Shown: one piece after another, positions 194 to 64,000 of the stretch
Layout: each line of letters starts with the position of its first letter
Position numbering within the stretch: position 1 is the first letter of the stretch
From: Marsupella aquatica
Lineage: Eukaryota; Plantae; Marchantiophyta
Assembly (NCBI GenBank): GCA_973895155.1
Contig: OZ316893.1
Location: 18,728,857-18,792,856, forward strand
DNA length: 64,000 bases
Reading direction: 5' to 3'
Notes under the pieces: generated by a model
What the model saw: the letters and a program-made list of their open reading frames with translations, nothing else
Database searches by the model: none
Told to the model about the DNA's origin: nothing
Program-made: the position numbers and the translations under genes

Positions 194-874
194 CTACTTG
201 TGAGGCAATTGCAAGACCTGCAACGCATCATGGTGTCTAGAAAAAGTCCCCAAAGGAATCACTTTGGTAAAAGCGTCAGTCAAGTTGAGTTTACCATCAA
301 TCTTGACTAGCTCAAACATATTATCAGACACAACCTGCCTGATAAAATGGTACCTAACATCAATGTGCTTCATTCTGCTGTCCATCACCTGGTTCACAAC
401 AAGGTGGAGCGCACTCTGACTATCACAATGAAGCTTCACATTCCCATGTGGCAATCCCATCTCAGTGATCAGTCTATCCAACCAAATCGCTTTCTTAGCT
501 GCTTCCGCTACTACAACATACTCCACTTCTGTAGTAGACTGAGCAATACACTTTTGCAAAGTAGACCTCCAACTTATGCATCCACCGCCAAGTGTGAACA
601 CATAACCTGTTGTTGACCTCCTCCAATCCAGATCCTATGCATAGTCAGCATCTACATAGCCCATCAATGATCTAGCATTATCAGCATGTGCATCAAACAA
701 TAGACCATGATCCATGATACCTTTCAAGTACCAAATAATCCACTTCACTGCTTCCCAATGTACCTTCCCTGGATTTGACATGTACCTATTCACCTTGCCC
801 ATAGCCGTGGCAAGTTCAGGTCTAGTGCAAGTCATCAAATACATGAGACTCCCCACTGCCTTGTCATAAGGAAT
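194..874 (-). pseudogene. Copia-A RT C-terminus and RNase H (stop/frameshift)
   Basis: IPYDKAVGSLMYLMTCTRP, GYVDADYA, QSTTEVEY, CDSQSALHL, KHIDVRYHFIR and DAFTK are Copia RT/RNase H motifs. Confidence 0.95.
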
Positions 875-1210
875 CACTAGTAGAAACCGGGGTAATTTAG
901 ACCATACCTTATAGGACTAAGCCCACTAAGTCCTTCTTCCATACTTTAAATGACTTGCACCCATTGCCAAGGTTTTGTTAAAGACTATAAAAGACTTTGA
1001 GTGTTTTCCGGTTTAGTTAAAGACTATGAAAAGTAACCTTGCTACTTTGTGAAGGGTGAACACTCTAGGACATCATGGGTTTTGTTCTTGGAATCACTCT
1101 AAAGGTCCACACAAAGACTAGTATAAGACAAAGTCTTCCAAGGGTTCATGATAAGAGTATACTTAAGAAGGACCGGGTCCTACTTTGGGCCTAAGTGCTT
1201 AAGGACATGC
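875..1210. repeat. CACTA-1 5' TIR and subterminal short-motif array (AAGACT/GACT/AGTC)
   Basis: There is a dense cluster of (a/g)gact and agtc motifs, mirrored at the 3' end. Such arrays are typical TnpA-binding subterminal repeats. Confidence 0.7.
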
Positions 1211-3390: not shown

Positions 3391-3531
3391 CTGCGCATTA
3401 GTGTTGGCCCTATCCTCCGTCCCTCTGCTGGCCTGCTACTGACATTTGGTTAATCATAGTTGTTCACTACTGTGCATTAGTGTTGGCCCTATCCTTCGTC
3501 CCTCTGCTAGCCTGCTACATTTGGTTAATCA
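3391..3531. repeat. Imperfect ~62-66-bp direct duplication inside the CACTA 5' arm
   Basis: ctg(c/t)gcattagtgttggccctatcct(c/t)cgtccctctgct...catttggttaatca occurs at 3391-3456 and 3470-3531. Confidence 0.85.
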
Positions 3532-6191
3532 AAATGCAATGTCTGTCTGAGTGAGCTGATCATCTCCAATGTAGTATGGGCTTGGGATTTACATATATGT
3601 TTCTTGCTTCCAGCAGATAGGCAATTGCTTCCAAGCTCTTTGGTGCAGACGTCTCTATGGAATGCAATGCCCTATATGCCAGAGCTTTCATATATTGGCA
3701 TGTTCACATTTGCTCTTGGAATATATGATCCCGAAAGCTTCATGAGCAGTTTATGTTCAGAATTCTGTTTATGTTATTGTTTCTGTCAATTGCAGCTTGG
3801 ATTTTTGAATATATGTCCTGTCATTGATGATAGAGGGTGGTTGAGATTGGTTTTCTTTCTTCTTGGTAGTGGGTCAGTGTGTTGGCATTTTCCTCATGTC
3901 ACTCATTCTCATCGGACGAGCTGCGGATTGGTACTGAATAGTCATTTAGCCTATTGCTGCCTCCCACCGCCATTGCCGATTGCCGCTATCATCGTGTATT
4001 GCTTGCTTGCTTGCCACTGCCTTTGTTGGTTGCCACCCTCTTCACACTCTCTCGCATCTATCTTCCGATATGAACGCGCAGCCAAGCCCACCAAAAGCTC
4101 TGTCCCTACAATCCCTCCCAAATCAACTTCCTTGTTTCCTGCTGCTCATGATCACCGCATTGTTCTTCCCTATTTTTGTTTACTTATTGGTCTCTCCACA
4201 CTTGTTGCTTCACATGACTATTTTGCTCCTCCCTGGATCCGAACATGCCTTGTGCCCAATGCTCCCACGGTGGAGTGGGGTGGTGAATAGACGACCTCAA
4301 CACCATTGCAATCACATTTGGATGGGTTAGTTTTTTGCAGCTTAAACCTGTCGGGATTTTGCGCTTGTGGCGACGCTATCCTTTCTGCCACTTCATGAGT
4401 TTGTTTATGCTGCAGTGGGCGGTCTTGCGCAACTCAATGAGCCAATTTCATTTTCCCTGTGCACTTCTATTTCTCAGAGAATTCCCTGGTCATGCTCATT
4501 TGCCCCAGAGTTAGAAAACAAAGAAGAAGAAGAGCTGACTAATTGTAATTCCAATCCATATCCTGATCGGTCAAGGATTGTGAACTACATTGGCCTTGTC
4601 ATTGGCCGAGGTCACCAAATTTTGCTTGGTTTCATTCCTGTGGAGCACTGTTGTGATGGATGAATAGTTGTCGTAGCATTCTGCAAACTCTCACGGTTTG
4701 CTTATGGCCATTATTTGCAATTTGCTGCTACTAATATGTCTCCGACTGAGCAGCATACACCGGAAGTAAGCAATAGTGGAGGTTTAACTGCACATCAACA
4801 CATCCAGTGAACTACCTCTCTGCTGCTCACTGGAGGGTGAGACTTTCACTCTTTCTGGATATTGTAGTTTGTAAGCAAGTTGATTAGGAGTGTTTCATGC
4901 TATGTTTACATTGTGACCCCTAGCTGGAACCAATGGAATGACACAGTGAGTGGGAACTGATAATTTAAGGTTGGTTGCTGTTGGTGAGGCAAGTACAGCT
5001 CCTGCTCACCTTGCTGATCGAAGGTGCTTATCAGAGGACGTGAACACACGACACTCCACAAAAGCAACACTTATGGTGAGGACCCGCAATGCTGAACATG
5101 TGCGGCTTGCACGCAAGGTAGAGATGTTGCACCTTGAGTATGTCAGACTTGGGATCCTTCCAGCCCAGTCTGCATGGTACTTTGAGTACCCAGTTGTTGC
5201 CAGGAATAACTACAGCAGCCCTGTACCTGCTTCTCCACCCTTCCCAACATCCTTGGTATTTTTGTCTCTCGTACATGACCCGCCACAAATTAGGGCCCAA
5301 GGGTGTGTGCATAGTTGCCAGTATGACTGTCCTGCCTGTAGGGCTTCTGGCCTAGAGTTGGATGACCGTTCTCTTGGATGTCGGTTTTTTCATAGAGCAC
5401 AATGTATCATCTGGAACCACTCGCCATCCTGTAGTGTGCCTGGCGATGTCACTTGTCCTGCCCTCCCAGACCCCACCACCGGTCACTTTGGTGTCTACAC
5501 ATGTTTGGATCACACGCTGTAGAAGACCACTTGTCACACCGCATGCACAAACCAGAGACCATTGACCTATAACTTAACACTTTGACTTGAACAGAGAGGA
5601 TATTTACTTAAGATTTTGAATTATGAGCAATTTTGGGTCCAGGGTTTACGGTCAACAGTACATAACTTATCCTATTATGGCTGCACTAAGTACAATATCC
5701 TAATTTAAGAGGCTAGCAAGCTCACTTAAAAGTCTCCTTTCAAAGACTGGAATTAATGGGCCATGTGATAACCTGGAAAAAGTGATTTATGCCTAACTTA
5801 TTTGTCTCATTCACTATCATAGCCTATTTAGGATGTATAAATTACAACCCTGATCACACTGCTTGATACCAATCCTGTTCAAAAAATGCCTATTTTACAT
5901 GTCACGACTGTTATATGTGATTCAAATGCATTAAATCTTGTTGCAGATCTCCTTTGGTGAATCATAGCCACAAAATTGAGGTGTAGGTGGAGCTATTGTA
6001 TGAGGGGATCAGTTTTTAGTGTGGGCTCAACAAACCAAAAAGTATGTCTACTCTGCACATGTGTGTGAACATTTCATTGTAGTAGCAATTGCCACTCTAG
6101 TCTATATGCTACACTGTACTTTTTGTACACTGCACTAAATTGTATTGTCTATGCACTCTGCTAAATTGTACTATCTGTCTCAGGTGTAGGC

Positions 6192-6872
6192 ATGGCACGC
6201 CCTAAAATCCGAGCCAAGAAGCAGGGGACAGAGGTGAGCAACACAGGTGTAGTTGGGCCAGATGGTAGTAACTTCTCTGCAAGTCAGATTTTCCAGAAGG
6301 CAGCTCATTGTTGTGCCATTTGTGACGATGGTGGTGGCTTAGCCATATGTGAGGGCCCTTGCATGAGGCATTTCCACCTCAACCCGGAGTCTGACCTTGC
6401 TGCAGAAAACAACTGTCCAGGGGTGGGCCTCCCGTCAGCACACCAGGGAGGCTGGATGTGCACTGATTGTTTGGAGAAGCAGGCTAAGTGTGCACAGTGT
6501 GGGAAGTTGGGGTCTTATGAGGGCTCTGTTGATGCTCCACCACTTGTTAGGAAATGCCCTGACAGATATTGTGTGAGGTTCTTTTGTTTTTCATGTTTGC
6601 CCGATCTTGCCACAGCTTGCCCACTTCATAAGTGCAAGGCATGTGGTCAGCACGATGAAGATTTCTGGGTGGACATAGTCCACTGTGTTAGGTGTCCCAC
6701 CATGTGGCACTTTCATTGTTTGAAGGAGCGTCAAGCAGAAGGCTATGCTTGTGATAGACACATCTATGATCACTCTGCACATGGTGTTGATCGATGGATC
6801 TTCTATTGTCATCGCCATGCCATAGATCCTACTTTGCACACTCCCATGAGAGATCACATTTCTTGGCTTTGA
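6192..6872 (+). CDS. EDM2-like: Stand-alone EDM2-like atypical PHD-finger cassette protein (226 aa), CACTA cargo
   Basis: The ORF is open from ATG to TGA and preceded by a splice acceptor (ctcag, 6183). It has a basic N-terminus (RPKIRAKK). Its motifs CAICDDGG.L.ICEGPC.R.FH, C.DC....KC..CGKLGS, CPLHKC..C, C.RCP..WH..CL and IFYC..H.ID..L.TP.RDHI are colinear with the PHD region of plant EDM2 as recalled (CAICDNGG..LCCEG.C.RSFH...CPLHKC...CRRCPKSYH.KCL...IYC..HEIDE.L.TP.RDH). Confidence 0.85.
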   Translation: MARPKIRAKKQGTEVSNTGVVGPDGSNFSASQIFQKAAHCCAICDDGGGLAICEGPCMRHFHLNPESDLAAENNCPGVGLPSAHQGGWMCTDCLEKQAKCAQCGKLGSYEGSVDAPPLVRKCPDRYCVRFFCFSCLPDLATACPLHKCKACGQHDEDFWVDIVHCVRCPTMWHFHCLKERQAEGYACDRHIYDHSAHGVDRWIFYCHRHAIDPTLHTPMRDHISWL

Positions 6873-7470
6873 ACCTGAATAATGTACATGCATAGTGCAC
6901 CTGATGTGGATACCTTGGATATTGCAGACATTCCAATTTTGAGAAGAAGGACCTCTGTAGGAGAGGATGCTTAGGCAACAAGTACCCTAAGTTCATTACT
7001 TGTTCCTGGGTACATGCCTTCAAAAACTCCCCTTAAGCCTTCTAGGAACTTTTTTAACTCTGCAATCATTTTGATCACGACTTACATGACATTGCTTAAA
7101 TTAAATCAGGACTTCTCATTATGAGCATATAAGTTACAAGGCTATTTAATTTGCGAGAATTCCCTTAAAGTGTACCAACATTTTGTATTGTCATTGAATG
7201 TCTGCCCATTTACAACATCTGTATGTGGCATCACAAAACAATTGCACTTGTCACCTTCAATATTGTGAAGGCACATATTCAAACTATGAGGTGCATGCTT
7301 GCAGGTGTCTAGTACGTTTGTCCCAATATTTCTCCCGTTTGGAATCGGAGCAGAGACTCACCAGATGACTGGACTGGACCAAGTTATAAACGCAGCATTT
7401 TAAGGGCCCTCCGATTATCAGGTGAACGCATTATCTTCCGGTCTGCAGTGATTAGGTGGCCCGTGTGTAC

Positions 7471-8319
7471 ATGGCCTCTAGGAAACGTACAAAGGTTGAC
7501 CACCCGCCTCTGTTGGCTAGAATCAAAGCCATTTTGATTCCTGGCCACTATGGGTTCACCCAAGTGAGTTGGCCAATCGTACAAAAATGATTCTCAGAGT
7601 TCCATGGGACTGAAGTCAAGGACATCACTCCACAGACTACACATGTTGTTGCGGGGACATGGCTGGATGTGATGAACAACTGGTCATGGTCCTTCATTGA
7701 TTCTACCATTACCAACCAAGGTCTAAAAGTAGTTGAAGTCTCTTGGCTGACCGATTCTGTTAAACATAGGTGTGTACAGAGTACTGAGCAATATGAGTTG
7801 TGGGAGAGTGAGGAGGCCACTGCAGAGGCTTTGGCTGAAAAGGAAGCCTATGAAGCAGCGGCAGAGAAACCCAACTTTGCTTCTGTCCAATATGGACCTG
7901 TTGTCAACATAGGACACCATCCTATGCATGCAGATGCTATATTGAATGAGCATGGCAAGGAGAGAAATACCATTATGAAGGGGTTCAGTGTGGTATTTGC
8001 AGAAGAAGGAATTGGGGAGACTAAGTGCAGATTGTACAAGTCTATAGTTGTTGAGCTAGGTGGGACAGTGGAGGAGAGTCTAACAGAAACCTCCACTCAT
8101 GTTGTAGGTCTGTCATACATGAAAATATGCAGAAAATTCTTTAAGACAACAGTGCGTGATTTTGTCATGAACAACAATCTTTGGGTGCTTTCCCCTGATT
8201 GGCTTCTGGAATCAGCAGCTAGAGGGAAGCGACAGAATGCTTGGGACTTTGATATTTTTGAGGCCTGGCCCTCCAAGATTCAGTGGAGATGTATGCTTAG
8301 CAAAGGTGGGAGAGAGTGA
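7471..8319 (+). pseudogene. Tandem-BRCT domain protein, CACTA cargo; one in-frame TGA at 7588-7590 in this copy
   Basis: ATG 7471 (MASRKRTK, NLS-like) is in frame with ORF 7669-8319. There are two BRCT-like repeats: ...FHGTEVKDITPQTTHVVA...VVEVSWLTDSVK...EQYEL and MKGFSVVF...IVVELGGTVEESLTETSTHVVG...VLSPDWLLESAARGKRQNAWDF. Confidence 0.8.
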
Positions 8320-8495
8320 GGAGTAGGAGTCCCTCATATTTTTGTATAAATCACAATTTTGTAATAAATGTGATCCTTGAACTAACTCATCTTGTCATGG
8401 TTGGTCGCAGTTGAAGTGATTGTTGTTTCCTGCTGCGTGGGGTGTGACTGTGAATCTACTTGCTGGGCTATGTTTGGCTGAAGACTTTGGTGGGT

Positions 8496-9029
8496 ATGCT
8501 GCCTCTTCCAGACCGTCAAGCCCTATGTAGGGTCCTCCTACGGGTTGCATCGTGCATGGCTACTGCTTGGGCTTACTTGTGTGGATTGGTAACCAGACAG
8601 AGTGTAGCTCCATCCGAGATAATGCCTGCAGACCTTGGATGTGTTGTGAATGCTGTGGTGAATGAGGATGCACAATCGGAAGAGGACATTTACTTTTCAG
8701 CAGATGAGTTAGACAAGCACGATGCTGTAGGTGGTTCCTTGTTGCCTGATTTGGCAGATGATATAGTTCTTACACATGTCTGGCCAAGGGTTCTTGTGGT
8801 GTCTGGCACACAAGATATCTGCAAATATAGACTAATTAGTACCCAGTGGAGGGACTTGGTAGCAACATGTGCACCATGGAGGGCACTGCTGCCACTGCTT
8901 GTAGGCACGGATCGAAGACCACCATGGCATGAGCAGGGTTTAGACCTTGATGACTTAATGTACATGCTTGAGTACCTCAGGGCTGAGTGGCATCGACAAC
9001 AGGATTGGTATCCGTATTTGATGTGGTAG
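8496..9029 (+). CDS. F-box-motif protein, CACTA cargo (start uncertain: ATG 8496 or 8556)
   Basis: SLLPDLADDIVLTHVWPRV...ICKYRLISTQWRDLV (~8736-8860) fits the plant F-box consensus L(I/L)PxLPDDI...LxRV...RxV(C/S)xxWRxL. Confidence 0.65.
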   Translation: MLPLPDRQALCRVLLRVASCMATAWAYLCGLVTRQSVAPSEIMPADLGCVVNAVVNEDAQSEEDIYFSADELDKHDAVGGSLLPDLADDIVLTHVWPRVLVVSGTQDICKYRLISTQWRDLVATCAPWRALLPLLVGTDRRPPWHEQGLDLDDLMYMLEYLRAEWHRQQDWYPYLMW

Positions 9030-9355
9030 TAAGATGAGGACATCTCACACCGGTCTCGCACCTGGCACCTGTGTCTATGACTATACATGATTGGACTCTG
9101 ATATGGTCATGGATGTACGTGCAGAGGCAGTACATGTGAGGACAGCGGAGGAGTTGACACCCTCAAACATTTAGGAATTTTGTCTCATTCACTTGAGAAT
9201 AGGTACATGACTCAGGCACCTATATTTTTTGTTTTTTTGTTTTTTTGGAACGTTACGTATTTTGGCAAGTACAGTCGGGGGTGAAATCCTTAACAGGAAG
9301 TGTATTTTTCACTTGCATAATAAAATGACAAGGTGCTGAGTGCGTGTGTATAGTG

Positions 9356-12300
9356 ATGGCTCCAAGGTTGCCTCTTCACAACCCATTTAGGATTAGGCAT
9401 CATGATTCTAAATTGTGGATGCGTGAACAAGCCCGGGCCGCCCAAGGTAGGAGTAGGAGGATGAGATGCCCATGCACACAGTGCCAAGGATTCAAGTCGT
9501 TGAGTTTGAACACTGTGCACCTTCACCTGCTGCGGCATGAAAGGCACCCTCGGTGGAGGGTTTGGAATGTACCAGCAGAAGAAGACTCCTCTGATGAAGA
9601 GTGGAGAGCTGACTTTGTGGATTCTAATACAGCTAGGCGTAGAGACTACGTAGAGCAGGACATAGACTGTGCAGAGGATGGTCCTGGGGTCCAACATGAG
9701 AACGTGGATGACCAAGATGGAGATGTAGAGGCAGTCACTGAGGACGGTGGGATGGATGTCCCAAGAATGGTTCAAGAGATTTTTGAAGACCTTGATGCTT
9801 TTTACGACACAGTGGAATCAGAAGAGGACAATGAACCGCAGCCACACATTGGCGACGGCCAAGCTGAACCTGACTTTGACATTGGGGAAGGTGCAGCAGA
9901 GAGGGAGTGGGTGTTTGGGGGCCCAAAACACATCAAAGAAGCTTGCATTCCTATCTACGAGGGGTCGAACTGCTCCAAGCTGGGTTTTGTCGTGTTGTTG
10001 TTGAACATCTGTGGCAATCACAATGTTCCCAATATATTTGTGACAGAGTTGTTGACCTTCCTGCGCCGAAATGTGTTACCAGATGGTAATTCAATTCCAA
10101 AAAATATGTACGAGGCTAGGAAATTGATGTCTAACCTTGGGCTGAACTATGTGTCTATTGATGCATGCCCTGATGGGTGTGTTCTCTTTCGCAAAGAGCA
10201 TGCAGATAAATTGACATGCCCTCATTGTGGTAAGCACAGGTACAAGAATGTAGGGAAATGTACACACCCTGCCAAGGTTCTTCGTCATTTTCCTCTCATT
10301 CCTAGACTACAACGTCTGTTTAGATGCCCTGCCATTTCCAAGCTGATGACATGGACTCCTGATAACAAGAGCAGTGATGGCCTGCAGCGTCACATTGGAG
10401 ATTCCAACCATTGGAAATTTGTTGATGAGAGGTGGCCACAGTTTGCTGCAGAGAAGCGGAACTTTCGATTTGGTCTATCACTGGATGGAGTAAACCCATT
10501 TGGAGACAAAAACAACCGTTATTCATGTTGGCCGGTTACGCTGCTAAATTACAACCTTCCCCCATGGATGACTACAAAGAGGTTTTTTGTCATGATGGTG
10601 CTGTTAATCCCTGGACCAGCTTCTGTGACCGAGCAATTCATAGATATCATGTTGGCTCCAGCAGTGGAAGAGTGGAAGACTTTGTGGATAGAAGGGGTGT
10701 TAACCCATGATGTTCTGAAGGGGCTTCTTCGACCCAGCCCCTTTAGACTGCATGCAATTTGTTTGCTGGATATAGCAGATTACCCAGGCCATGGCATCAT
10801 ATCTGGACGAGTGACAAAGGGCTATGTGGGGTGCACACCATGTGGGAAAAATGTGACAAGTGAGTGGTCGCATGCCTTGCACAGTATGAAATTTCAGGGG
10901 CATAGAAGGTATCTGCCTATTGATCATCCTTACAGGCACACACGGTCTCAAATTGCACACTTCAACAACAAAACAGAGCTCCGTGGCCCACCACAGAGGG
11001 TCACCAGAGAGCAAGTCCTGAGGTGGGCAGCCAGGAAGGCTGATTGGGACAAGAGAAGTGCCACTGATCGAGAACCTGAGGATCCAGTGGTGAAACACGG
11101 TGTGAAAAGACAGACCTTGATGGACTTGGAGTTGGAGTACTGGAGGGTAATGTACTTAGCCTCCAGCCCCTGTATGATTGCAATTTTAGATTGGAGCAAT
11201 GGTGGATTGATGTTGGTTACAATCCTCCTATGTGGTTAATTAGTGTTTCTGTTGTTGAATTCTTTGCTTTGTGGAGTGCAGGAATTCGAGCCCAGCAAAC
11301 ACAATGTGGACGTCATGCACATTGAGAAAAATATTTGTGAGAGCTTGCTGAAGTTCTTGTCGGGTGAGAAAGATACAGGAGCAGTTCGAGCTGATATGCA
11401 ACAGAAGGGGATTCACCCTCACCTTTGGTTGAAGCCCCATGCAAGCAATCCCAATGTACTTCTCAAGTTCCAAGCTCCCTATGTGTGCACACAGGATGAA
11501 TGGAAGACATTCTTGTATAGATTGAGCTGTCTGAAAGTGCCCTCTGGCTATGCTGGTGCCTTCAAGAAGCATATTACAAAGAATAAACTTGGCAGTATGA
11601 AAACACATGACTACCATGTGTTGATGCAGCACATTCTGCCCCTATGCCTCAGAGGTCTCATGCAGAAACCAGTCCGTAATGTCATTCTTCGACTGTGCAA
11701 TGTATTTCGCCGTATATGTGTGAAAGTGTGGGATCCCCAAGGATTGGAGCAGTTGAAGCAGGATGCTGCTTATGTCCTCTGTGACTTGGAGATATACTTC
11801 CCCCCTGCTTTCTTTAATGTTATGACTCATCTCCTAATCCATGTGGTAGAAGAGCTAGGGCAGTATGGGCCAGTCAGTACCAGATGGATGTACCCTATGG
11901 AGCGATACATGAAGTTGTTGAAAGGTCATGTGAGAACATACTATAGGCCAGAGGCTTCCATGGCATTGGGGTACATTAAGGATGAGACGTTGGGATTCCT
12001 AACAGAGTACATGGCTGGGTCTGGTGAAGCTATGACAAGAGTTTGGAAATCTGGTGAAGATGATGGAGTGAGTGGCGAGGTTGTTGAAGGTGTGGGACGT
12101 GCTGTTCAGCTGCCTGTTGCGATTCGAGACAAGGCTCATTCATATGTGCTGGCAAACACAGAGCCTATGCAACCATGGTGGAGGTGAGTGATTGAATTGA
12201 CTTGCCTTTGTTGTGATGCTTCTTGTCTGTTCCAAGGGTGATCTTAGGTTGTCATGTGTTGTTTAGACCTAATTATGCCTGTACCTCATATTGCAGGGAA

Positions 12301-13056
12301 TATGATATGCAAAAAGCTGCACACTCTAGGCAGCAGGATCCCTTCCCACAGTTCGAGCAGTGGATTCGGGTGACAATTCGAGAGCATAGTAGACATCACC
12401 CAGATATGGAGAAGGATTTGTATCTTCTATCTGTGCCACCACGATTGTCTATTCTAACCTACAAACAGATGAGAGCTTATGGAAATCATTATCGAGTGAG
12501 GGATGAGCAGGGTGACCATTGTGTATCATATGATTGTGGTTTGATTTCTGTGTTTGAGCAGAGAACCTCTGAAGAACAGAGGGGGTGGATGAAGATGGGT
12601 TACGTGGGGGAGTTGATCGACATTTGGGTGTTGAATTATGGTAACACAAGTGTCCCAGTGATATTGATGAAGGGATCATGGGTGAAATCAGAGTGGCAGA
12701 GACCAAGGGCCACCATGAAGCGTGATCATGATGGGTTCTTGTTGGCCAATTTTAGGTCCAGAGTACCAGAATGGTCTGAGCCTTTTGTTTTCCCTAGCCA
12801 AGTTGAACGGGCTTTCTTTGCAGATGTGGAGGAGTCACATGGCTAGAGGGTGGTATGCCATAGCCAAGCACGGAACAGGCGGATGGATGGAAGTAAAGTA
12901 GAGTTCAGTTTGGATGACCATGCTGCATTCGAGCATCCTAGTCATGAGATTGTACTTCCAACTCGGGCAGGGACTGACTACATCCCCTTAACATTGAGAG
13001 AGACATATGATGAACCTGGGCAAATGGAATATGATGAGGTTGATGATTTGCAATAG
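9356..13056 (+). pseudogene. tnpD: CACTA TnpD-type transposase (Transposase_21, DUF4218 and DUF4216 architecture); exons 9356-11146, 11282-12183, 12297-13056; premature TAG at 12844-12846
   Basis: Motifs include RCPCTQC...HL, IDACPDGCVLF, VLRHFPLIPRLQRLF, LSLDGVNPF, YNLPPW, DYPG, HNVDVMHIEKN, WMYPMERY and EPFVFPSQV. GT-AG introns at 11147-11281 and 12184-12296 restore the frame (LEYWR|EFEPSKHNVDVMHIEKN). Confidence 0.95.
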
Positions 13057-13233
13057 GCAACAGCTGGCGATTGGCAAGTATGAGGTTGAGGATGACTACC
13101 TGCACAGAGTCACAGAACGGGAATTGCTGCCTGGAATGATGTTTAGGATAGTTGGATATGCATGAAATTGATTGATACTTTGAATTTAGTGTGCTGATTC
13201 TCCCTGTTTGGTTGTGGGTGATGTGCAGAAGCT

Positions 13234-16200
13234 ATGGGGGAAGAGGGTGATGACATGGAGACAGACATGGGGCTTGGAGAGTGGGGTGAAGAGGAAAGAT
13301 TGGATATGGATGGAGACCCAGATGCAGGGGGCTCACAGAAAAATGCACCTGTGCAAGATGCACAGGGCCCTCATCAAGTCCCAGGTAGGTGGGCAGCTAG
13401 AGAGAAATCACATAATCCATACCCTAGAAGGAGCCAGAGTTATTGGCAAGGGACGCCTGATAATTATGATGATGACTATGATGGAGCAGAAGATGGATGG
13501 GATGATTATGAACACCCAGAGCGTGGTAGAGACGGGTACAGAGGGCAATGGAAAGGTGAGGAGGATGATTGGACAAGTAAGTGCCTTGTGCTAGTGATTT
13601 TGTGATGGTAGTAGAGATTTAGCTCAATATGCACTTATCTGATGTGTAGCTAGGGCAAAGAGTTTATCTTACAGGTCCATGAGTGTGGCATGTACCTGTT
13701 GGTATGCAGACTCTGATTGGGACAATCACGAAAACAACAAAGGCCATCCACGTTCAGATAGGAGGCAATCATTCACAGGCGGGAGAAACGCCCCTAATTC
13801 ATCAAGACAAAGCAATAGGACAGGTGGTCCAGAACCATCTATGCGCCAAGGGAGAGGTAACTTGGTCATTGCAGAATTGCTCTGAAGTCCACTGTATATT
13901 TGGCAGCGGGATTTATGATTCATACTTACCTAATGTAAGTGACTGTAAATGGATCCTGTAAATGTGCAGGGACTCCAGGGAGGTTTGGACAATGCAATCC
14001 AGGCCGTGGGGGGAGATCAGGCCGTGGAGGGACCCCAGGCCGTGGGGGGACACCAGGCCGTGGAGGGACACCTAGTAGCACTTCAGGGAGTACCAAGGCA
14101 GGAGACAGTAACAAATTTGGTAAAGTAGAAGTGAATTCCGAAGGTTGGATAACTCCCACATGTGATGGTAAGAACCGTTGGCATTCTGACCTAAGAGGAG
14201 AAGTATTGCGTTGGTTAGATTTGAGCATTACAGAGTTTAGGAGTCAGAACAAAGCTGATTGGGCTACTATCTGCAAGGACATTCTTGAACGGTGGGAGTA
14301 TGTTGGTAATGATGGTAAGGGCCCAGTTGAAGATTGCATATCAGATTATGCAATGAGGATTTTGAAACAAGAGAGGCATAGGTTGAAAAGGATGTGGATA
14401 GACAATGGTTCTAACAGGAGAATGCCACCACCCCCATCATTGGAACTGGATCAATGGACACGGTTAATCAAAGGGTTCATGTCGGAGGCTGGACAGAGCA
14501 AGAGTGAACTGATGTCAAATGCTCGAGGCAAAGTGAAACACCTTTCACAGGCTGGGAGAGGAAGTTATGCTCTAGTGAAAGAACAATTGGTAAGGCAGTG
14601 ACATGCCTGATAGTAAGCCTCAAACTTATCATCTTGCTACCATTATTACATTTTCATTGACAATCAACACTTGGTTTCATTCATATGTATGTTGATGTGG
14701 ACTGCAGAAGAAATTGACAGGTGAAGAACCATCAGCACAAGAAGTGAGAGAGGAGTTCATGAAACAAAGGAGTGAGGTGACAAGTGTAACTTCCAAACAG
14801 GTGATTATGTTGTAATTCTGTATGTTCTGTGACTATTTGGCCTTGAGCATCAGAAAGAAATGTAGTAGGAAGTAAACAACCAGTTCTTGGGGACAGTTAT
14901 CTGAGATATGTAAGCTGTGTTATGACAGGGAACTGTTACAACTCTCACAGAGATGTGTGAACGGTTGAAGTCATTAGAGTGTGGACTCCCTCAAGTGGAA
15001 AGTAAATTGGCTGATCGTTTGGATATTGTGGAGGCATCTGTAGCGAACCTTCTTGCATCAGTGGAATCTAATTTCAAGCTTGTGATTGAAAAATTGGGTG
15101 GTTCCCAACCAAACAATGAGGGCAACATTGTACAAAGTGTGCCCTTATTAACAAAAAAGGGAATTGGCAAATCTGACACAGGTATGGAAATGACACCGGC
15201 CCATTGTTCATTGTGTCCTATGTTCAAATGTTAGAAGTAAGTTTTCATGAATTGAGTGAATGGTTTGAATGCAGGAAGAGTGGAGGCAGAGAAGGACCCT
15301 GTAATCAGTAAGCAGAAGGGCAAGAAGGTTGCTGAGACAGGTAACCTGCTATGATCCAGTACATTACATTTGAAAAGTGCATGGAGTTTTGTGAAGCTTA
15401 AGCCGGTTGGAGGTAATCTTTTCTGTAAGAACTGGTTGGATGAACTGGGATCTGAAGTGACATCATGATTGATGTATCAGGTGATTCAAAGAGCAATAAT
15501 GAAGAAGATGTGCCCAGTGCCTCAGTGACCATAGCCAAGGAGGTATCAGGTAAGCTGATGCTTTAAATTCCTCTATATGAATGTTGAGAAACAATTCAGT
15601 GGTTAATAGATTCAACTTGAATATTGTGGTGTGTTTATTGATCAACAGAAGCAGACATGGAGCATATGGCAATGGCAAAGAAGGGGAAGAAGGCTGTTCA
15701 TAATGGAAAGGAGATAGTGACAACTTTGTGGTTGGTGACATGTACATTTAGCACATGTGATGAGTGATTGACTTATGTTGGACATGACACTGAATTGTAG
15801 TTGATGCAGAGTTGACAGACTCTCAACCAAGTGGGAGCAGGGTGAAGCGAGGTCGAAACTTGGGAGCAACATTGGATGCAAGTAAGATTGTAGATGCTTC
15901 AATTGAAGCAAGTACAATGTTGGCAGATACTGAGATGATGTCGCAGGGAAATCCTGCTACACAGTCAGAAGTGTCAAATATGGATGCAGATTCTTTGAAG
16001 AAGAGTGTAGCCAATTCTCGATCACCAGCACAAAACACTCATGCCAAAGTCATGACTCGCAACCAAGGTATGAATAATGTCATGTATAAGCCACCCAGGA
16101 AAGCCAAGAAAAACAGCCAGGGTAAGGTGGAGGTGATAGCCACAACAGAGCCAGTCCATAATCTTCTATCATGGGAGGATGACTCGCAGGTATGTGTGGG

Positions 16201-16405
16201 TACAGGCATTTTGCGACCGGATCATGCAAAATTCCATGGCAAAGTGGTCCCGGATGACCATGTAGTAGTGTTGTTGACTACAGTGATTGTATCTGATTGT
16301 AATTTGCCATTTCCGAATAGAGACGATGATCCACCTCAGGAAATAATTGCAGATGCAGTAGGATCTCTTGTGCTTTGGCCATCAGAGTGTGTTAGTCTGC
16401 AGTGA
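13234..16405 (+). CDS. tnpA: CACTA TnpA-like multi-exon gene (exon boundaries approximate)
   Basis: A series of short GT-AG-bounded exons follows TnpD. They encode an acidic N-terminus, RGG repeats, a Ptta/En-Spm-like core (RHRLKRMW...PPP...QWTRLI...SELMSNARGKV...GRGSY), a coiled coil, and the C-terminal FHGKVVP...LPFP...DAVGSLVLWP domain typical of plant CACTA ORF2. Confidence 0.8.
13998..14072 (+). repeat. 18-bp tandem repeat (~4 units) encoding (P/S)GRGG(T/R) RGG boxes in TnpA
   Basis: Units of ccaggccgtgg(g/a)gg(g/a).. translate as PGRGGRSGRGGTPGRGGTPGRGGTP. Confidence 0.9.
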
Positions 16406-16899
16406 CTGAATGCAAGTGTAGATAGAATCATGTGAATTGTGTCACATTTTGACATTGCCTTGGAAAGATCCAAGAAATATCTGTACCAATTTTTCCATTT
16501 GGTAAAGAGGATGAAGGAGCCGTTGTGTGTGACATTGATATTTCTGAATTCTGTATGTATGAAACAAGTGATTGATGTCAAACTATGGCTCTATGGTGAT
16601 TGTCTATGATATTTGAATCTGTTTTGTATCATTTCAGTATTAGTGTGTATGGTATAGAGGAATACTTTGTGACCTTCTTTGTAGTCTATGAAGTTTGAAT
16701 CTGTGAATTCATATTAGTGTACATGGTATAGAAGATGGCTTTCTGAAACTATGTATTCTAATGTTAACATGATGAATGGTGAACTTATAGAGTGAGTTCA
16801 TTCCAAGTACACAATAACACATGAATGCAATATGTTATTTGTGCACAAGAGTGGGTTCATTCCAAGTAGTATAGTGGGGTCTTCATCACTCATATCCAG

Positions 16900-17232
16900 T
16901 TGACATGAAAGACTTATACATACCCCACAAAGTATATTTAAAGACTACCCTCCATAACCTTTTTAGTCGTTCCCAACGACTCACCATCTCAGCCCATAAA
17001 AGACTGAAAATGACTCACCAAAGCTACCCACACAAAGACTAAAATAGATTGAAAATTCAGTCTATTAAACGACTTATAAACCAGTTCTATAAAGGACTCA
17101 GTTGATTATAGTAACAAAACATACGACTCGCAGTCCTATAAAGGACTGGAATCCTTCCCAGTCGTTTCCAAGTCCTACACGGTACTGAATAGTCATTAAT
17201 GGGGTCTAAATACCCCTCGGTTTCTACTAGTG
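16900..17232. repeat. CACTA-1 3' subterminal motif array and TIR
   Basis: Repeated aagact/gact/agtc motifs end in TTTCTACTAGTG. Confidence 0.75.
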
Positions 17233-17235
17233 AAT

Positions 17236-22982: not shown

Positions 22983-23026
22983 ATTTTTCCAATTTTCCCC
23001 TTTTTGCGGATTATAGATAGCTGAAG

Positions 23027-37124: not shown

Positions 37125-37333
37125 AACTCCCCCTTGACTCTTGTCTTGGGGACTGAACTAAATGCTACCATATGGAATCCTCAGCGGGAAGTTCTAGACA
37201 ATCATCAAACCAGGTCTCTCCCTAAAAACCACAAAGGTTAAAACTAAGGGTTAACTAGAACTAAGCCGTAGCCAAACAGGAATGAGTAATCCATATACAA
37301 ATAGTCACACATTGCTAAATAACTCTACTTGCA

Positions 37334-58300: not shown

Positions 58301-58744
58301 GCTAGTATTATTCAAGACATGCATGGTGGCCTAGATGCTAACAATTGTGACTATGAAAATTACCTTGGAGATCTGGTCGACGTTGGTGATTACTTTGCTG
58401 TTCTGGCTGAGGAAGGGAACATTTGGCATGCAGAATTTTATATTTTGCTGTGCACAAAGTTGGCTGCTATTGTTGAAGCAGACTTCACTGATGATTACGG
58501 TGCAAAGTTCTTGAAGGGTGATAGAGTGTTGGCTGGCACTTGGTATCAACAGTATGGCAGGTTATCGGATTATTGTTTTGTTAGATATGAGAAGGCTAGC
58601 TTGAGTTATGTGGATGTGTCCTCTGTGGTACACATCAAATTTGGTCTTGTACCAACAAAGGTTGTGAGCGGTTCACCAGGATTCAAAATTTCATCCAACA
58701 CCCTAGATGCAATTTTGTGTTCAACAGAAAGGTACTCAGTCTGA
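55400..58744 (+). pseudogene. Sola2-like DDD transposase gene (introns 56358-56560 and 57755-57883; 5' frameshifts; in-frame TGA 57578-57580)
   Basis: Motifs include IGLRSFQAMKPYF...NVCCCKQH, C..GLCEDC, IDFAENY..AVQDEVQSLHW, ISDDNSHD, WSDGCAAQFK, WCFHASGHGKGLQ|DGLGGGVK and RDLACFCEDC. This series matches Sola2-type transposases as recalled; the superfamily call is unverified. Confidence 0.72.
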
Positions 58745-59595: not shown

Positions 59596-60423
59596 CACTA
59601 GTAGAAACCGGGGGGTATTTAGACCCCATTAAATGACTATTCAGTACCGTGTAGGACTTGGAAACGACTGGGAAGGACTCCAATCCTTTATAGGACTGCG
59701 AGTCGTATGTTTTGTTACTATAATCAACTGAGTCCTTTATAGAACTGGTTTATAAGTCGTTTAATAGACTGGATTTTCAGTCTATTTTAGTCTTTGTGTG
59801 GGTAGCTTTGGTGAGTCGTTTTCAGTCTTTTATGGGCTGAGATGGTGAGTCGTTGGGAACAACTAAAAAGGTTATGGAGGGTAGTCTTTAAATATACTTT
59901 GTGGGGTATGTATAAGTCTTTCATGTCAACTGGATATGAGTGATGAAGACCCCACTATACTACTTGGAATGAACCCACTCTTGTGCACAAATAACATATT
60001 GCATTCATGTGTTATTGTGTACTTGGAATGAACTCACTCTATAAGTTCACCATTCATCATGTTAACATTAGAATACATAGTTTCAGAAAGCCATCTTCTA
60101 TACCATGTACACTAATATGAATTCATAGATTCAAACTTCATAGACTACAAAGAAGGTCACAAAGTATTCCTCTATACCATACACACTAATACTGAAATGA
60201 TACAAAACAGATTCAAATATCATAGACAATCACCATAGAGCCATAGTTTGACATCAATCACTTGTTTCATACATACAGAATTCAGAAATATCAATGTCAC
60301 ACACAACGGCTCCTTCATCCTCTTTACCAAATGGAAAAATTGGTACAGATATTTCTTGGATCTTTCCAAGGCAATGTCAAAATGTGACACAATTCACATG
60401 ATTCTATCTACACTTGCATTCAG

Positions 60424-63400
60424 TCACTGCAGACTAACATACTCTGATGGCCAAAGCACAAGAGATCCTACTGCATCTGCAATTATTTCCTGAGGTGGAT
60501 CATCGTCTCTATTCGGAAATGGCAAATTACAATCAGATACAATCACTGTAGTCAACAACACTACTACATGGTCATCCGGGACCACTTTGCCATGGAATTT
60601 TGCATGATCCGGTCGCAAAATGCCTGTACCCACACATACCTGCGAGTCATCCTCCCATGATAGAAGATTATGGACTGGCTCTGCTGTGGCTATCACCTCC
60701 ACCTTACCCTGGCTGTTTTTCTTGGCTTTCCTGGGTGGCTTATACATGACATTATTCATACCTTGGTTGCGAGTCATGACTTTGGCACGAGTGTTTTGTG
60801 CTGGTGATCGAGAATTGGCTACACTCTTCTTCAAAGAATCTGCATCCATATTTGACACTTCTGATTGTGTAGCAGGATTTCCCTGCGACATCATCTCAGT
60901 ATCTGCCAACATTGTACTTGCTTCAATTGAAGCATCTACAATCTTACTTGCATCCAATGTTGCTCCCAAGTTTCGACGTCGCTTCACCCTGCTCCCACTT
61001 GGTTGAGAGTCTGTCAACTCTGCATCAACTACAATTCAGTGTCATGTCCAACATAAGTCAATCACTCATCACATGTGCTAAATGTACATGTCACCAACCA
61101 CAAAGTTGTCACTATCTCCTTACCATTATGAACAGCCTTCTTCCCCTTCTTTGCCATTGCCATATGCTCCATGTCTGCTTCTGTTGATCAATAAACACAC
61201 CACAATATTCAAGTTGAATCTATTAACCACTGAATTGTTTTTCAACATTCATATAGAGGAATTTAAAGCATCAGCTTACCTGATACCTCCTTGGCTATGG
61301 TCACTGAGGCACTGGGCACATCTTCTTCATTATTGCTCTTTGAATCACCTGATACATCAATCATGATGTCACTTCAGATCCCAGTTCATCCAACCAGTTC
61401 TTACAGAAAAGATTACCTCCAACCGGCTTAAGCTTCACAAAACTCCATGCACTTTTCAAATGTAATGTACTGGATCATAGCAGGTTACCTGTCTCAGCAA
61501 CCTTCTTGCCCTTCTGCTTACTGATTACAGGGTCCTTCTCTGCCTCCACTCTTTCTGCATTCAAACCATTCACTCAATTCATGAAAACTTACTTCTAACA
61601 TTTGAACATAGGACACAATGAACAATGGGCCGGTGTCATTTCCATACCTGTGTCAGATTTGCCAATTCCCTTTTTTGTTAACAAGGGCACACTTTGTACA
61701 ATGTTGCCCTCATTGTTTGGTTGGGAACCACCCAATTTTTCAATCACAAGCTTGAAATTAGATTCCACTGATGCAAGAAGGTTCGCTACAGATGCCTCCA
61801 CAATATCCAAACGATCAGCCAATTTACTTTCCACTCGAGGGAGTCCACACTCTAATGACTTCAACCGTTCACACATCTCTGTGAGAGTTGTAACAGTTCC
61901 CTGTCATAACACAGCTTACATATCTCAGATAACTGTCCCCAAGAACTGGTTGCTTACTTCCTACTACATTTCTTTCTGATGCTCAAGGCCAAATAGTCAC
62001 AGAACATACAGAATTACAATATAATCACCTGTTTGGAAGTTACACTTGTCACCTCACTCCTTTGTTTCATGAACTCCTCTCTCACTTCTTGTGCTGATGG
62101 TTCTTCACCTGTCAATTTCTTCTGCAGTCCACATCAACATACATATGAATGAAACCAAGTGTTGATTGTCAATGAAAATGTAATAATGGTAGCAAGATGA
62201 TAAGTTTGAGGCTTACTATCAGGCATGTCACTGCCTTACCAATTGTTCTTTCACTGGAGCATAACTTCCTCTCCCAGCCTGTGAAAGGTGTTTCACTTTG
62301 CCTCGAGCATTTGACATCAGTTCACTCTTGCTCTGTCCAGCCTCCGACATGAACCCTTTGATTAACCGTGTCCATTGATCCAGTTCCAATGATGGGGGTG
62401 GTGGCATTCTCCTGTTAGAACCATTGTCTATCCACATCCTTTTCAACCTATGCCTCTCTTGTTTCAAAATCCTCATTGCATAATCTGATATGCAATCTTC
62501 AACTGGGCCCTTACCATCATTACCAACATACTCCCACCGTTCAAGAATGTCCTTGCAGATAGCAGCCCAATCAGCTTTGTTCTGACTCCTAAACTCTGTA
62601 ATGCTCAAATCTAACCAACGCAATACTTCTCCTCTTAGGTCAGAATGCCAACGGTTCTTACCATCACATGTGGGAGTTATCCAACCTTCGGAATTCACTT
62701 CTACTTTACCAAATTTGTTACTGTCTCCTGCCTTGGTACTCCCTGAAGTGCTACTAGGTGTCCCTCCACGGCCTGGTGTCCCCCCACGGCCTGGGGTCCC
62801 TCCACGGCCTGATCTCCCCCCACGGCCTGGATTGCATTGTCCAAACCTCCCTGGAGTCCCTGCACATTTACAGGATCCATTTACAGTCACTTACATTAGG
62901 TAAGTATGAATCATAAATCCCGCTGCCAAATATACAGTGGACTTCAGAGCAATTCTGCAATGACCAAGTTACCTCTCCCTTGGCGCATAGATGGTTCTGG
63001 ACCACCTGTCCTATTGCTTTGTCTTGATGAATTAGGGGCGTTTCTCCCGCCTGTGAATGATTGCCTACTATCTGAACGTGGATGGCCTTTGTTGTTTTCG
63101 TGATTGTCCCAATCAGAGTCTGCATACCAACAGGTACATGCCACACTCATGGACCTGTAAGATAAACTCTTTGCCCTAGCTACACATCAGATAAGTGCAT
63201 ATTGAGCTAAATCTCTACTACCATCACAAAATCACTAGCACAAGGCACTTACTTGTCCAATCATCCTCCTCACCTTTCCATTGCCCTCTGTACCCGTCTC
63301 TACCACGCTCTGGGTGTTCATATTCATCCCATCCATCTTCTGCTCCATCATAGTCATCATCATAATTATCAGGCGTCCCTTGCCAATAACTCTGGCTCCT

Positions 63401-63595
63401 TCTAGGGTATGGATTATGTGATTTCTCTCTAGCTGCCCACCTACCTGGGACTTGATGAGGGCCCTGTGCATCTTGCACAGGTGCATTTTTCTGTGAGCCC
63501 CCTGCATTTGGGTCTCCATCCATATCCAATCTTTCCTCTTCACACCACTCTCCAAGCCCCATGTCTGTCTCCATGTCATCACCCTCTTCCCCCAT
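60424..63595 (-). CDS. tnpA: TnpA-like multi-exon gene of CACTA-1 copy b
   Basis: It mirrors 13234-16405. Confidence 0.8.
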
Positions 63596-63772
63596 AGCTT
63601 CTGCACAGCACCCACAACCAAACAGGGAGAATCAGCACACTAAATTCAAAGTATCAATCAATTTCATGCATATCCAACTATCCTAAACATCATTCCAGGC
63701 AGCAATTCCCGTTCTGTGACTCTGTGCAGGTAGTCATCCTCAACCTCATACTTGCCAATCGCCAGTTGTTGC

Positions 63773-64000
63773 CTATTGCAAATCATCAACCTCATCATAT
63801 TCCATTTGCCCAGGTTCATCATATGTCTCTCTCAATGTTAAGGGGATGTAGTCAGTCCCTGCCCGAGTTGGAAGTACAATCTCATGACTAGGATGCTCGA
63901 ATGCAGCATGGTCATCCAAACTGAACTCTACTTTACTTCCATCCATCCGCCTGTTCCGTGCTTGGCTATGGCATACCACCCTCCAGCCATGTGACTCCTC
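63773..64000 (-). CDS. tnpD: C-terminus of the TnpD transposase of copy b (partial; open through the codon that is a stop in copy a)
   Basis: It reads EESHGWRVVCHSQAR...; TGG at 63985-63983 corresponds to TAG at 12844-12846. Confidence 0.9.
   Translation of the reverse strand, partial: EESHGWRVVCHSQARNRRMDGSKVEFSLDDHAAFEHPSHEIVLPTRAGTDYIPLTLRETYDEPGQMEYDEVDDLQ

What the first reader, a model, noticed from the sequence alone, without database searches (positions are those of the whole stretch)
6192..6872. Intact, intronless, stand-alone EDM2-like PHD cassette inside a transposon
Seen: the 226-aa open ORF is colinear with the whole EDM2 PHD region, down to its characteristic end motif (IFYCHRHAIDPTLHTPMRDHISW versus EDM2-type IYC..HEID..L.TP.RDH). 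It stops right after that motif and lacks EDM2's other regions, including the C-terminal methyltransferase-like domain. Established: Arabidopsis EDM2 PHD fingers bind combinations of H3K9me and H3K4me marks. With ASI1/IBM2 and AIPP1/EDM3, EDM2 promotes full-length transcription and distal polyadenylation across intronic heterochromatic TEs (RPP7, IBM1). Inference: a TE-borne, reader-only EDM2 could act as a decoy/dominant negative, or could license transcription of the element's own heterochromatic, intron-containing genes. Its divergence while staying open suggests selection. Host EDM2 is multi-exonic, so the lack of introns hints at RNA-mediated capture or later intron loss.
Basis: partly seen in the sequence, partly recalled or inferred. 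Interest (0 to 1): 0.88.

Follow-up and report, generated by a model that had tools for sequence, protein, structure and literature searches.

The report
Transposon carries histone reader with H3-mimic
A plant DNA transposon carries an intact, conserved gene for a cut-down relative of the chromatin protein EDM2, whose first residues resemble the histone H3 tail, and it likely uses this protein to bind silenced chromatin and blunt the host's silencing of the element.

Summary
Confirmed. The 226-aa ORF (6192-6872) lies inside a 16.4-kb CACTA transposon (875-17232; terminal repeats, 3-bp duplication, TnpD). It is colinear with Arabidopsis EDM2 residues 225-432 (29%, E 3e-25), keeps 24 zinc ligands and folds confidently (pLDDT 88.5).

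It belongs to a distinct family of about 20 unnamed stand-alone relatives (38-81% identical among those measured) with the same stop position, and it is under purifying selection (core pN/pS 0.27).

Three corrections. (1) Only the coding region is intronless; a 5'-UTR intron is predicted. (2) 'Reader-only' EDM2 is not unique: liverworts and mosses have host paralogs lacking the methyltransferase-like domain, and discrete characters point to the liverwort ones as closest. Trees reject only a flowering-plant donor. (3) The module is remodelled: PHD2 has His-to-Cys and a short spacer, and the acidic stretch before PHD1 is gone.

New: the N-terminus matches histone H3 residues 1-9 in register, and liverwort EDM2 starts similarly. 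The same element carries tandem-BRCT and weak F-box-like genes.

Best reading: a selected accessory chromatin factor, likely anti-silencing (0.4). Expression, histone binding and the relatives' transposon context are untested. No paper describing it was found in ten searches.

The parts
872..874 (.). Left target-site duplication (AAT)
875..892 (+). Left terminal inverted repeat starting CACTA
   Evidence: (I7, 88% complementary)
980..1119 (+). Four copies of a 7-nt subterminal motif; four more at 16908-17040 (putative TnpA sites, inferred)
   Evidence: 22 in the window against 14 +/- 3.9 expected; 12 of the 22 lie near the three element ends
4950..5522 (+). 190-aa open frame with a Cys/His-rich end; no family; possibly further cargo
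   Evidence: no Pfam hit; no usable Atlas hit, low recognition
6042..6189 (+). Predicted 5'-UTR intron ending 2 nt before the ATG
   Evidence: prediction only, no RNA
6192..6872 (+). Stand-alone EDM2-type triple-PHD gene, 226 aa, one coding exon (P0001)
6195..6221 (+). N-terminal residues 2-10 matching histone H3 1-9 in register (A1, R2, K4, A7, K9 identical; R8 to K)
6312..6470 (+). PHD1 (C41-C93, C4HC3), AIRE/NSD-PHD1-like; acidic lead-in replaced by a family motif
6489..6629 (+). PHD2 (C100-H146), fifth ligand Cys instead of His, 7-residue spacer
6633..6866 (+). PHD3 (C148-H209, C4HC2H) plus the EDM2 end motif (205-225)
7471..8319 (+). Tandem-BRCT cargo gene; this copy has an in-frame stop at 7588-7590
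   Evidence: BRCT E 1.9e-12, 2 stretches; relative P0202 60% identical
8454..9029 (+). Open frame with a weak F-box-like stretch
   Evidence: E 0.066, below cut-off: a hint only
9356..13056 (+). TnpD transposase, three predicted exons (9356-11146, 11282-12183, 12297-13056); one internal stop at 12844-12846 in this copy only
   Evidence: Transposase_21, DUF4218, DUF4216; 1151 codons, stops at 1081 and 1151; the second copy and three laid runs differ at 12845
13234..16405 (+). Multi-exon TnpA-like gene (predicted)
   Evidence: Transposase_24 E 0.017 (weak); splice sites read
17215..17235 (+). Right terminal inverted repeat (to 17232) and AAT duplication
59596..64000 (-). 3' end of a second copy of the element, 99.3% identical; runs off the window before the PHD gene

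Best explanation
This is an intact accessory gene of a CACTA transposon, encoding a compact EDM2-type triple-PHD protein with an H3-like N-terminal tail, which was likely captured long ago from a non-seed-plant EDM2 paralog and likely works as a chromatin-binding anti-silencing factor for the element. Shown: the ORF, its place in the element, EDM2-type homology, the conserved family, selection, and the tail's match to H3 1-9. Predicted: a six-zinc folded module. Inferred: after initiator Met removal the protein starts A-R-x-K like H3; the PHD module binds H3 tails in H3K9-methylated chromatin, as EDM2 does; the tail acts as a mimic that either gates the protein's own PHD groove or draws host H3K9/H3K4 writers and readers away. 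Because it lacks EDM2's other domains, it would occupy or shield the mark rather than run EDM2's full RNA-processing function, so that the 16-kb, intron-containing element stays transcribable while methylated.
For: Family: 5 relatives of 217-245 aa at 38-81% identity. A profile search found more; I assign 20 database proteins plus locus L001 to the family, and the 9 rows in the careful trees form one clade (100/98; 100/100). None of the 7 relatives looked up comes from an annotated genome. 11 of the 21 assigned proteins lack the end motif and L001 is intronless with an in-frame stop, as expected of decaying transposon copies, though contig ends could explain some. Selection: of 38 best-supported coding variants in four runs, the core (codons 40-226) has 15 synonymous and 16 replacement changes, pN/pS 0.27, p 0.0004; none alters one of the 24 ligands; 0 stops. 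The neighbouring BRCT and TnpD genes of this copy each carry a stop while this ORF is open. In run X1 the contig identical to the PHD gene has depth 1978, in the same class as transposase contigs (1817-2073). Fold: pLDDT 88.5, pTM 0.82; best match NSD2 PHD-C5HCH, Z 5.3, rmsd 2.6, 75 residues. Tail: the best H3(1-9) window sits directly after a Met in 9 of 16 members scored, with shuffle p<0.01 in 7 of 16; M-A-R-x-K in 8 of 19 members against 3 of 179 other proteins, kept across 37-45% identical pairs while residues 10-25 diverge. Context from papers (passages): EDM2 is pulled down by H3K9me1/2/3 but not unmodified H3 (PMC6208443); H3K9me persists on activated Spm elements (bioRxiv 10.64898/2026.08.24.746577).
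Against: There is no expression evidence. Histone binding was not tested. The acidic stretch before PHD1 is lost (net -0.2 in 18 members against +6.9 in 53 long EDM2 proteins) and PHD2 is remodelled, so EDM2's specificity may not carry over. The genomic context of all relatives but L001 is unknown, and L001 (1.9 kb) shows no similarity to the element outside the gene. The tail motif was noticed after looking, members are related, 6 of 16 do not reach p<0.05, and a basic nuclear localisation signal would give part of the match. The A-R start is also found in 15 of 179 other proteins, including Marchantia and Riccia EDM2, so it may simply be inherited. In the model, residues 1-20 are low-confidence. 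The pN/pS rests on 40 of 144 listed differences, each counted alone against this copy, and about half are replacements. In Arabidopsis EDM2 represses Mu1 but promotes COPIA4 (PMC3632883 passages), so the direction of benefit is not obvious. The donor is not resolved by trees.
Confidence: 0.4

Rival explanations
1. Recently captured host gene or passenger: the host lineage already had a small stand-alone EDM2-like gene, the conservation seen among distant relatives reflects host function, and the transposon merely carries a copy.
For: Stand-alone or ELP-less host paralogs exist (Marchantia 280 aa, Calypogeia, Riccia, mosses), and so do short seed-plant-type ones. The context of the relatives is unknown. 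Pack-CACTA capture is well described (PMC13317346 passages).
Against: Selection is seen among near-identical copies in the laid runs, with two versions about 12% apart at similar high depth in one run. About half of the relatives look broken (L001). None of 7 checked is in an annotated genome. All 11 scored members share derived characters absent from every host EDM2 scored.
Confidence: 0.2
2. Targeting factor: the PHD protein tethers the TnpA/TnpD transposition complex to nucleosomes with a given mark and so steers insertion into heterochromatin; the BRCT protein would link to break repair.
For: This copy sits inside a Copia pol gene, and every ORF identified in the window is transposon-derived. 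The BRCT neighbour's best solved match is a Pol X-type BRCT, weakly (E 0.06). Reader-guided integration is known for chromodomain integrases and RAG2 (recalled).
Against: It is a separate protein with no shown link to the transposase. Nesting in other transposons is also what neutral survival gives. Only two insertion sites were seen. The H3-like tail is not needed for tethering.
Confidence: 0.15
3. Licensing factor: it recruits host AIPP1/ASI1 to the element's H3K9me2 chromatin so that full-length, distally polyadenylated transcripts are made.
For: This is EDM2's known role (PMC7472560, PMC9292364 passages). The element is long and intron-rich, and activated Spm elements keep H3K9me.
Against: All EDM2 regions outside the PHD module are absent. 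I found no passage placing the AIPP1 contact within the PHD module. The host already has full EDM2 if it resembles the liverworts, lycophyte and fern seen here.
Confidence: 0.12
4. Not a histone reader any more: the basic N-terminus is a nuclear localisation signal and the remodelled zinc module is a protein-protein or nucleic-acid adaptor for the element's other products (BRCT, F-box-like, TnpA).
For: Loss of the acidic lead-in and a changed PHD2; K/R-rich start; fold searches give only middling matches.
Against: A, R and K hold fixed positions at the very N-terminus across distant members, which an NLS does not need. PHD1 keeps the AIRE/BHC80-like core.
Confidence: 0.13

Closest known systems
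EDM2 (Arabidopsis EDM2_ARATH) and land-plant orthologues
   Same: Colinear three-finger module with C4HC2H fingers and the end motif; 29-34% identity.
   Different: No RFD-like N-terminal domain, no ELP methyltransferase-like domain, no acidic lead-in; PHD2 His-to-Cys with a 7-residue spacer; one coding exon; inside a transposon.
Liverwort ELP-less EDM2 paralogs (Marchantia MARPO_0005s0286 and MARPO_0172s0021, Riccia, Calypogeia)
   Same: End just after the module; aromatic-x-His before the last Cys (11/11 family, 5/6 plus one shifted, 1/87 others); R-[HQY]-F-H rather than R-S-F-H; several start M-A-R.
   Different: They keep the His ligand and 25-27-residue spacer, and most keep 400-500 residues upstream. 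Sister status is not rejected (p-AU 0.41 and 0.37) but not shown.
NSD1/2/3 PHD1-3 cluster
   Same: Profile match E 2.8e-11 over positions 34-166; sub-threshold Pfam NSD-type PHD hits.
   Different: The match stops before the EDM2 end motif; no SET or PWWP domain.
Transposon anti-silencing factors: VANC/KIU of Vandal MULEs, TnpA of Spm, TET/JBP of fungal DNA transposons
   Same: Accessory gene in a DNA transposon, some captured from the host (passages; TET/JBP from listing only).
   Different: Those act through DNA motifs or DNA demethylation; this is a histone-reader fold with a histone-like tail, and anti-silencing is untested here.
Histone mimics (influenza NS1, SARS-CoV-2 ORF8; host auto-methylation motifs)
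   Same: Short H3-tail-like motif in a protein of a conflicting genome (PMC13165374 passages).
   Different: Here it sits at the true N-terminus, covers both the K4 and K9 positions, is joined to a PHD module, and is carried by a transposon.

Membership tests
CACTA/En-Spm transposon | Terminal inverted repeats starting CACTA | tested here: met
CACTA/En-Spm transposon | 3-bp target-site duplication | tested here: met
   AAT on both sides
CACTA/En-Spm transposon | TnpD (Transposase_21) gene | tested here: met
   E 1.4e-59; spliced frame
CACTA/En-Spm transposon | TnpA-like gene and subterminal repeats | tested here: inconclusive
   Transposase_24 E 0.017; motif clusters at the ends, 22 against 14 expected window-wide
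EDM2 / ELP family | Atypical tandem PHD module with C4HC2H fingers and end motif | tested here: met
   PHD2 is a variant (Cys for His, short spacer)
EDM2 / ELP family | C-terminal ELP (methyltransferase-like) domain | tested here: not met
   No alignment outside the PHD module; tblastn of whole EDM2 on the window hits only the ORF
EDM2 / ELP family | N-terminal RFD-like domain and acidic stretches | tested here: not met
   DNMT1-RFD found in long EDM2 proteins, not in the family; acidic lead-in absent
EDM2 / ELP family | Binds H3K9-methylated tails; works with AIPP1 and ASI1 | not testable with these tools
   Needs peptide binding and co-IP
Liverwort ELP-less EDM2 paralog clade | Forms one clade with them | tested here: inconclusive
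   Quick tree joins them (SH-aLRT 92); careful trees do not; AU does not reject; discrete characters agree
NSD histone methyltransferases | SET and PWWP domains with the PHD cluster | tested here: not met
   226-aa protein with only PHD-type hits
Pack-CACTA passive cargo | Host fragment in an element without transposase, evolving neutrally | tested here: not met
   Element has TnpD and TnpA-like genes; pN/pS 0.27; family 38-81% identical with fixed ends
Transposon anti-silencing factor (VANC-like in function) | Expression in trans lowers silencing of cognate copies | not testable with these tools
   Needs transgene or knock-down with methylome and ChIP
Histone H3 mimic | Motif matching the H3 tail | tested here: met
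   sequence match only, found after looking
Histone H3 mimic | Motif is bound or modified by H3 readers or writers | not testable with these tools
   Needs in vitro methylation and binding assays

The most novel reading that the evidence does not exclude
A long-lived lineage of plant CACTA transposons encodes its own histone counter-measure: a miniaturised EDM2 that joins a heterochromatin reader to an N-terminal H3 K4/K9 mimic, so that it docks on silenced copies and soaks up or misdirects host H3K9 methyltransferases and readers. It would be produced, with BRCT and F-box-like partners, from a cassette of single-exon genes spliced to a shared leader. It would be the first transposon-encoded histone mimic that my searches could have shown, and it would reveal an overlooked H3-like self-ligand at the start of non-seed-plant EDM2 itself.
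Probability: 0.25. Interest if true: 0.85.

Novelty: new variant of a known kind. Interest (0 to 1): 0.62.

Why it matters
The transposon anti-silencing proteins I read about (VANC, TnpA) work through DNA motifs and DNA demethylation. A transposon that keeps, under selection, a stripped histone-reader module taken from the host's own heterochromatin read-through machinery would show a second front, at the histone level. The protein is small, single-exon and predicted to fold well, so it can be tested directly on peptide arrays. It also offers a minimal model for how EDM2-type PHD modules read H3K9me, for which my PDB searches found no close solved relative. The H3-like start shared with liverwort EDM2 gives a testable idea about EDM2 self-regulation.

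Tried and rejected
No whole genome is held, so copy number, synteny and host EDM2 could not be read. No RNA holder was listed; the five runs laid are contigs that cross the predicted TnpD introns without a joint, so they say nothing on expression. A search for longer proteins with the six-member profile gave only 2 distant NSD-like proteins among 3284 candidates; EDM2 came only from the full HMMER scan. The complex prediction of the tail (residues 2-31) with the module (19-226) gave no answer (score 0.01, mark 0.34); peptides are outside that test. The metagenome scan gave 1 locus from 147 stretches; the prokaryote scan 0 from 19. The second Atlas call, on 4950-5519, gave no usable hit. Earlier scan findings: none. 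Trees: the quick 60-row tree nested the family with liverwort short paralogs; the careful 33-row tree put it outside all land-plant EDM2 (96/90, long stem); the 27-row tree without outgroups left it unresolved. AU tests rejected grouping with three angiosperm EDM2 (p 0.003) but not with moss (0.25), liverwort full-length (0.23) or liverwort short (0.41; 0.37 with outgroups); the liverwort-short group was named after seeing the first tree. The careful 60-row tree was not finished. One character (residues after RCP) was mis-parsed in three rows and is not used. Rejected: that the ORF is an internal exon spliced onward, since the stop position is shared by most full-length relatives and no strong donor lies near its end; a coding exon upstream is not excluded. 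Rejected: a fusion with the BRCT gene, which has its own ATG matching relative P0202.

Full report
Observation. The ORF at 6192-6872 is open for 226 codons; none of 200 shuffles of the surrounding 8.5 kb gave one as long. Pfam gives three NSD-type PHD hits, all under their cut-offs. The pairwise match to Arabidopsis EDM2 (P0164, named) covers residues 41-225 against 225-432 at 29%, E 3e-25, and includes the end motif. An NSD profile match stops before that motif, so the module is EDM2-type. Whole EDM2 proteins hit nothing else in the window.

The element. Inverted ends starting CACTA at 875 and 17232 with AAT duplicated outside define a 16.4-kb CACTA element, inserted in a Copia pol gene. On the + strand it carries, in order: an unexplained 190-aa frame, the PHD gene, a tandem-BRCT gene (7471-8319; one relative, 60% identical), a weak F-box-like frame, a three-exon TnpD and a TnpA-like gene. 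A second copy begins at 59596 on the other strand, 99.3% identical over 4.4 kb. This copy has an in-frame stop in the BRCT gene and one near the end of TnpD; the second copy and three laid runs lack the TnpD stop. CpG is depleted in the PHD ORF (0.24 of expected), so the DNA has likely been methylated. In run X1 a contig identical to part of the PHD gene has depth 1978, like transposase contigs (1817-2073), while part of the left arm has about 260. Depth is not a copy number, but the gene appears to be a regular part of an abundant family.

The family. Five relatives of 217-245 aa (38-81%) came from 110 candidates. A profile scan gave 546 hits, 150 listed. By score and eye I assign 20 database proteins to the family, plus L001. 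The 9 rows in the careful trees form one strongly supported clade on a long stem. The 7 relatives looked up are from Logan or JGI only. 10 of 21 proteins have the full end motif and 11 do not; L001 is intronless with an in-frame stop. Their transposon context could not be read, which is the main gap.

Selection and fold. Of 144 differences in four runs the 40 best supported were shown, 38 of them coding. The core has 15 synonymous and 16 replacement changes (pN/pS 0.27, p 0.0004), the first 39 codons 2 and 5; no ligand is altered and there are no stops. In a 65-sequence alignment 23 of the 24 ligand positions are at least 90% conserved, the exception being the family's own Cys132. The model from that alignment has pLDDT 88.5, with residues 1-20 low. 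Fold searches return PHD clusters at middling scores: Foldseek best E 3e-05 with poor rmsd; VIA-align best Z 5.3, rmsd 2.6, 75 aligned, NSD2 PHD-C5HCH.

How it differs from EDM2. Characters were scored on proteins where my pattern found both ends (110 of 178 then held; duplicates dropped; three family rows added). PHD2's fifth ligand is Cys in 11 of 11 family rows and His in all 91 other rows that could be scored (4 of 95 could not); its spacer is 7 against 27 in 67 of 83 others. The acidic stretch before PHD1 is absent: net -0.2 (18 members), +1.2 (6 liverwort short paralogs), +5.0 (2 mosses), +6.9 (53 long EDM2). It is replaced by a conserved F-[ST]-x-x-E-x-x-Q-x-x-x-H motif that the model folds with confidence and that Calypogeia P0015 partly shares.

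Origin. Liverworts (Marchantia, Riccia, Calypogeia) and mosses have EDM2-like host genes with no ELP domain that end 3-47 residues after the module, one only 280 aa long. The family shares with the six liverwort ones an aromatic-x-His before the last Cys (11/11; 5/6 plus one shifted; 0/2 mosses; 1/87 others) and R-[HQY]-F-H (11/11; 6/6; 1/87 others). Trees are weaker: the quick tree joins them, one careful tree puts the family outside all land-plant EDM2, another is unresolved. AU tests reject only the angiosperm grouping (p 0.003). A non-seed-plant, probably liverwort-type, donor is inferred, not shown. Gene calls that leave Arabidopsis EDM2 after residues 268, 303 and 384 suggest introns inside its module; the cassette has none, but introns in the liverwort paralogs were not checked. 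A 5'-UTR intron is predicted.

The tail. After Met the protein matches H3 1-9 (sequence seen in PMC7192584) at A1, R2, K4, A7 and K9. Among 16 members scored, the best H3 window follows a Met directly in 9; shuffle p is under 0.01 in 7 and over 0.05 in 6. M-A-R-x-K occurs in 8 of 19 members and 3 of 179 other proteins, and holds between members 37-45% identical while residues 10-25 do not. Against: it was noticed after the fact, members are kin, and an NLS explains part of it. Full-length Marchantia and Riccia EDM2 score 5 and 4.5 on the same scale, lacking K4. So the H3-like start is probably inherited, and the cassette may be a whole gene compacted by internal deletion rather than a captured PHD fragment.

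Mechanism. I commit to a selected accessory chromatin factor that binds H3 tails on silenced copies and shields or decoys through its tail (0.4). Rivals: passenger or recently captured host gene (0.2), integration targeting (0.15), non-histone adaptor with an NLS (0.13), AIPP1/ASI1 licensing (0.12). From papers, passages only: EDM2's domains (PMC7529245; PMC3776765); the AAE complex (PMC7472560, PMC9292364, PMC10241880, PMC8762163); H3K9me pull-down (PMC6208443); opposite effects on Mu1 and COPIA4 (PMC3632883); persistence of H3K9me on activated Spm and alternative splicing of TnpD/TnpA (bioRxiv 10.64898/2026.08.24.746577); VANC/KIU and Pack-CACTA (PMC13317346); viral histone mimics (PMC13165374). 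Lei et al. 2014 is not held, so H3K4me binding is recalled. Met removal before Ala, PHD recognition of the free A-R end, and PHD fingers in LINE ORF1, Mutator elements and RAG2 are recalled.

Novelty. Ten full-text searches listed no paper on a transposon-borne EDM2-type module or a transposon-encoded H3 mimic. I judged most from listings, the library lacks most subscription papers, and I saw no supplements or repeat libraries. Captured accessory genes and PHD-bearing transposons are known kinds, so this is a new variant of a known kind, real and selected, with an untested but directly testable mechanism.

Noticed in passing
P0017, P0021, P0025, P0015, P0018, P0020, P0091 (database proteins): EDM2-like proteins of liverworts and other unnamed hits start M-A-R, and Marchantia and Riccia full-length EDM2 match H3 1-9 at A1, R2, T3, A7 (and K/R9); a possible self-ligand of EDM2.
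   Followed up: partly
P0033, P0035, P0043, P0044, P0061, P0098, P0137: Short (270-386 aa) stand-alone EDM2-like PHD proteins that group with seed-plant EDM2 in the quick tree; three start M-A-R-x-K. An independent origin of reader-only forms; context unknown.
   Followed up: partly
window 6189, 9353, 13228: PHD, TnpD and TnpA-like ATGs each have a YAG acceptor 2-5 nt upstream (3 of 5 ORFs checked; 96 of 455 ATGs in the element do so), hinting at splicing from a shared leader.
   Followed up: partly
window 7471-8319: Tandem-BRCT cargo gene; weak best PDB matches of its relative are TdT and ligase IV BRCT domains (E 0.06-0.2), suggesting a link to end-joining repair.
   Followed up: partly
window 4950-5522: 190-aa frame with a Cys/His-rich end, in a high-depth part of the element, with no Pfam or Atlas hit.
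   Followed up: partly
window 1351-4105: Left arm has about a tenth of the depth of the rest of the element in three runs, so it may belong to a minority subfamily.
   Followed up: no
window 44786-45616 (-) and 49912-50607 (-): A Plavaka-type transposase (PF18759, E 1.9e-19) and a frame resembling this element's TnpA-like last exon by eye; no PHD gene with them.
   Followed up: partly
window 52796-58744: Tandem duplication (95-96%, spacing about 3.4 kb) with Cys-rich frames of 339 and 298 aa that have no Pfam hit; look like an unclassified DNA transposase (recalled resemblance).
   Followed up: no
window 21585-25604 (+); 37313-41581 (-): A decayed LINE (DUF4283, zf-CCHC, RVT_1) and a Copia element related (72-82%) to the one split by the CACTA insertion.
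   Followed up: partly
P0144 (database protein): A 1635-aa protein with a kinase domain fused to an EDM2-type PHD region; may be a mis-joined gene model.
   Followed up: no
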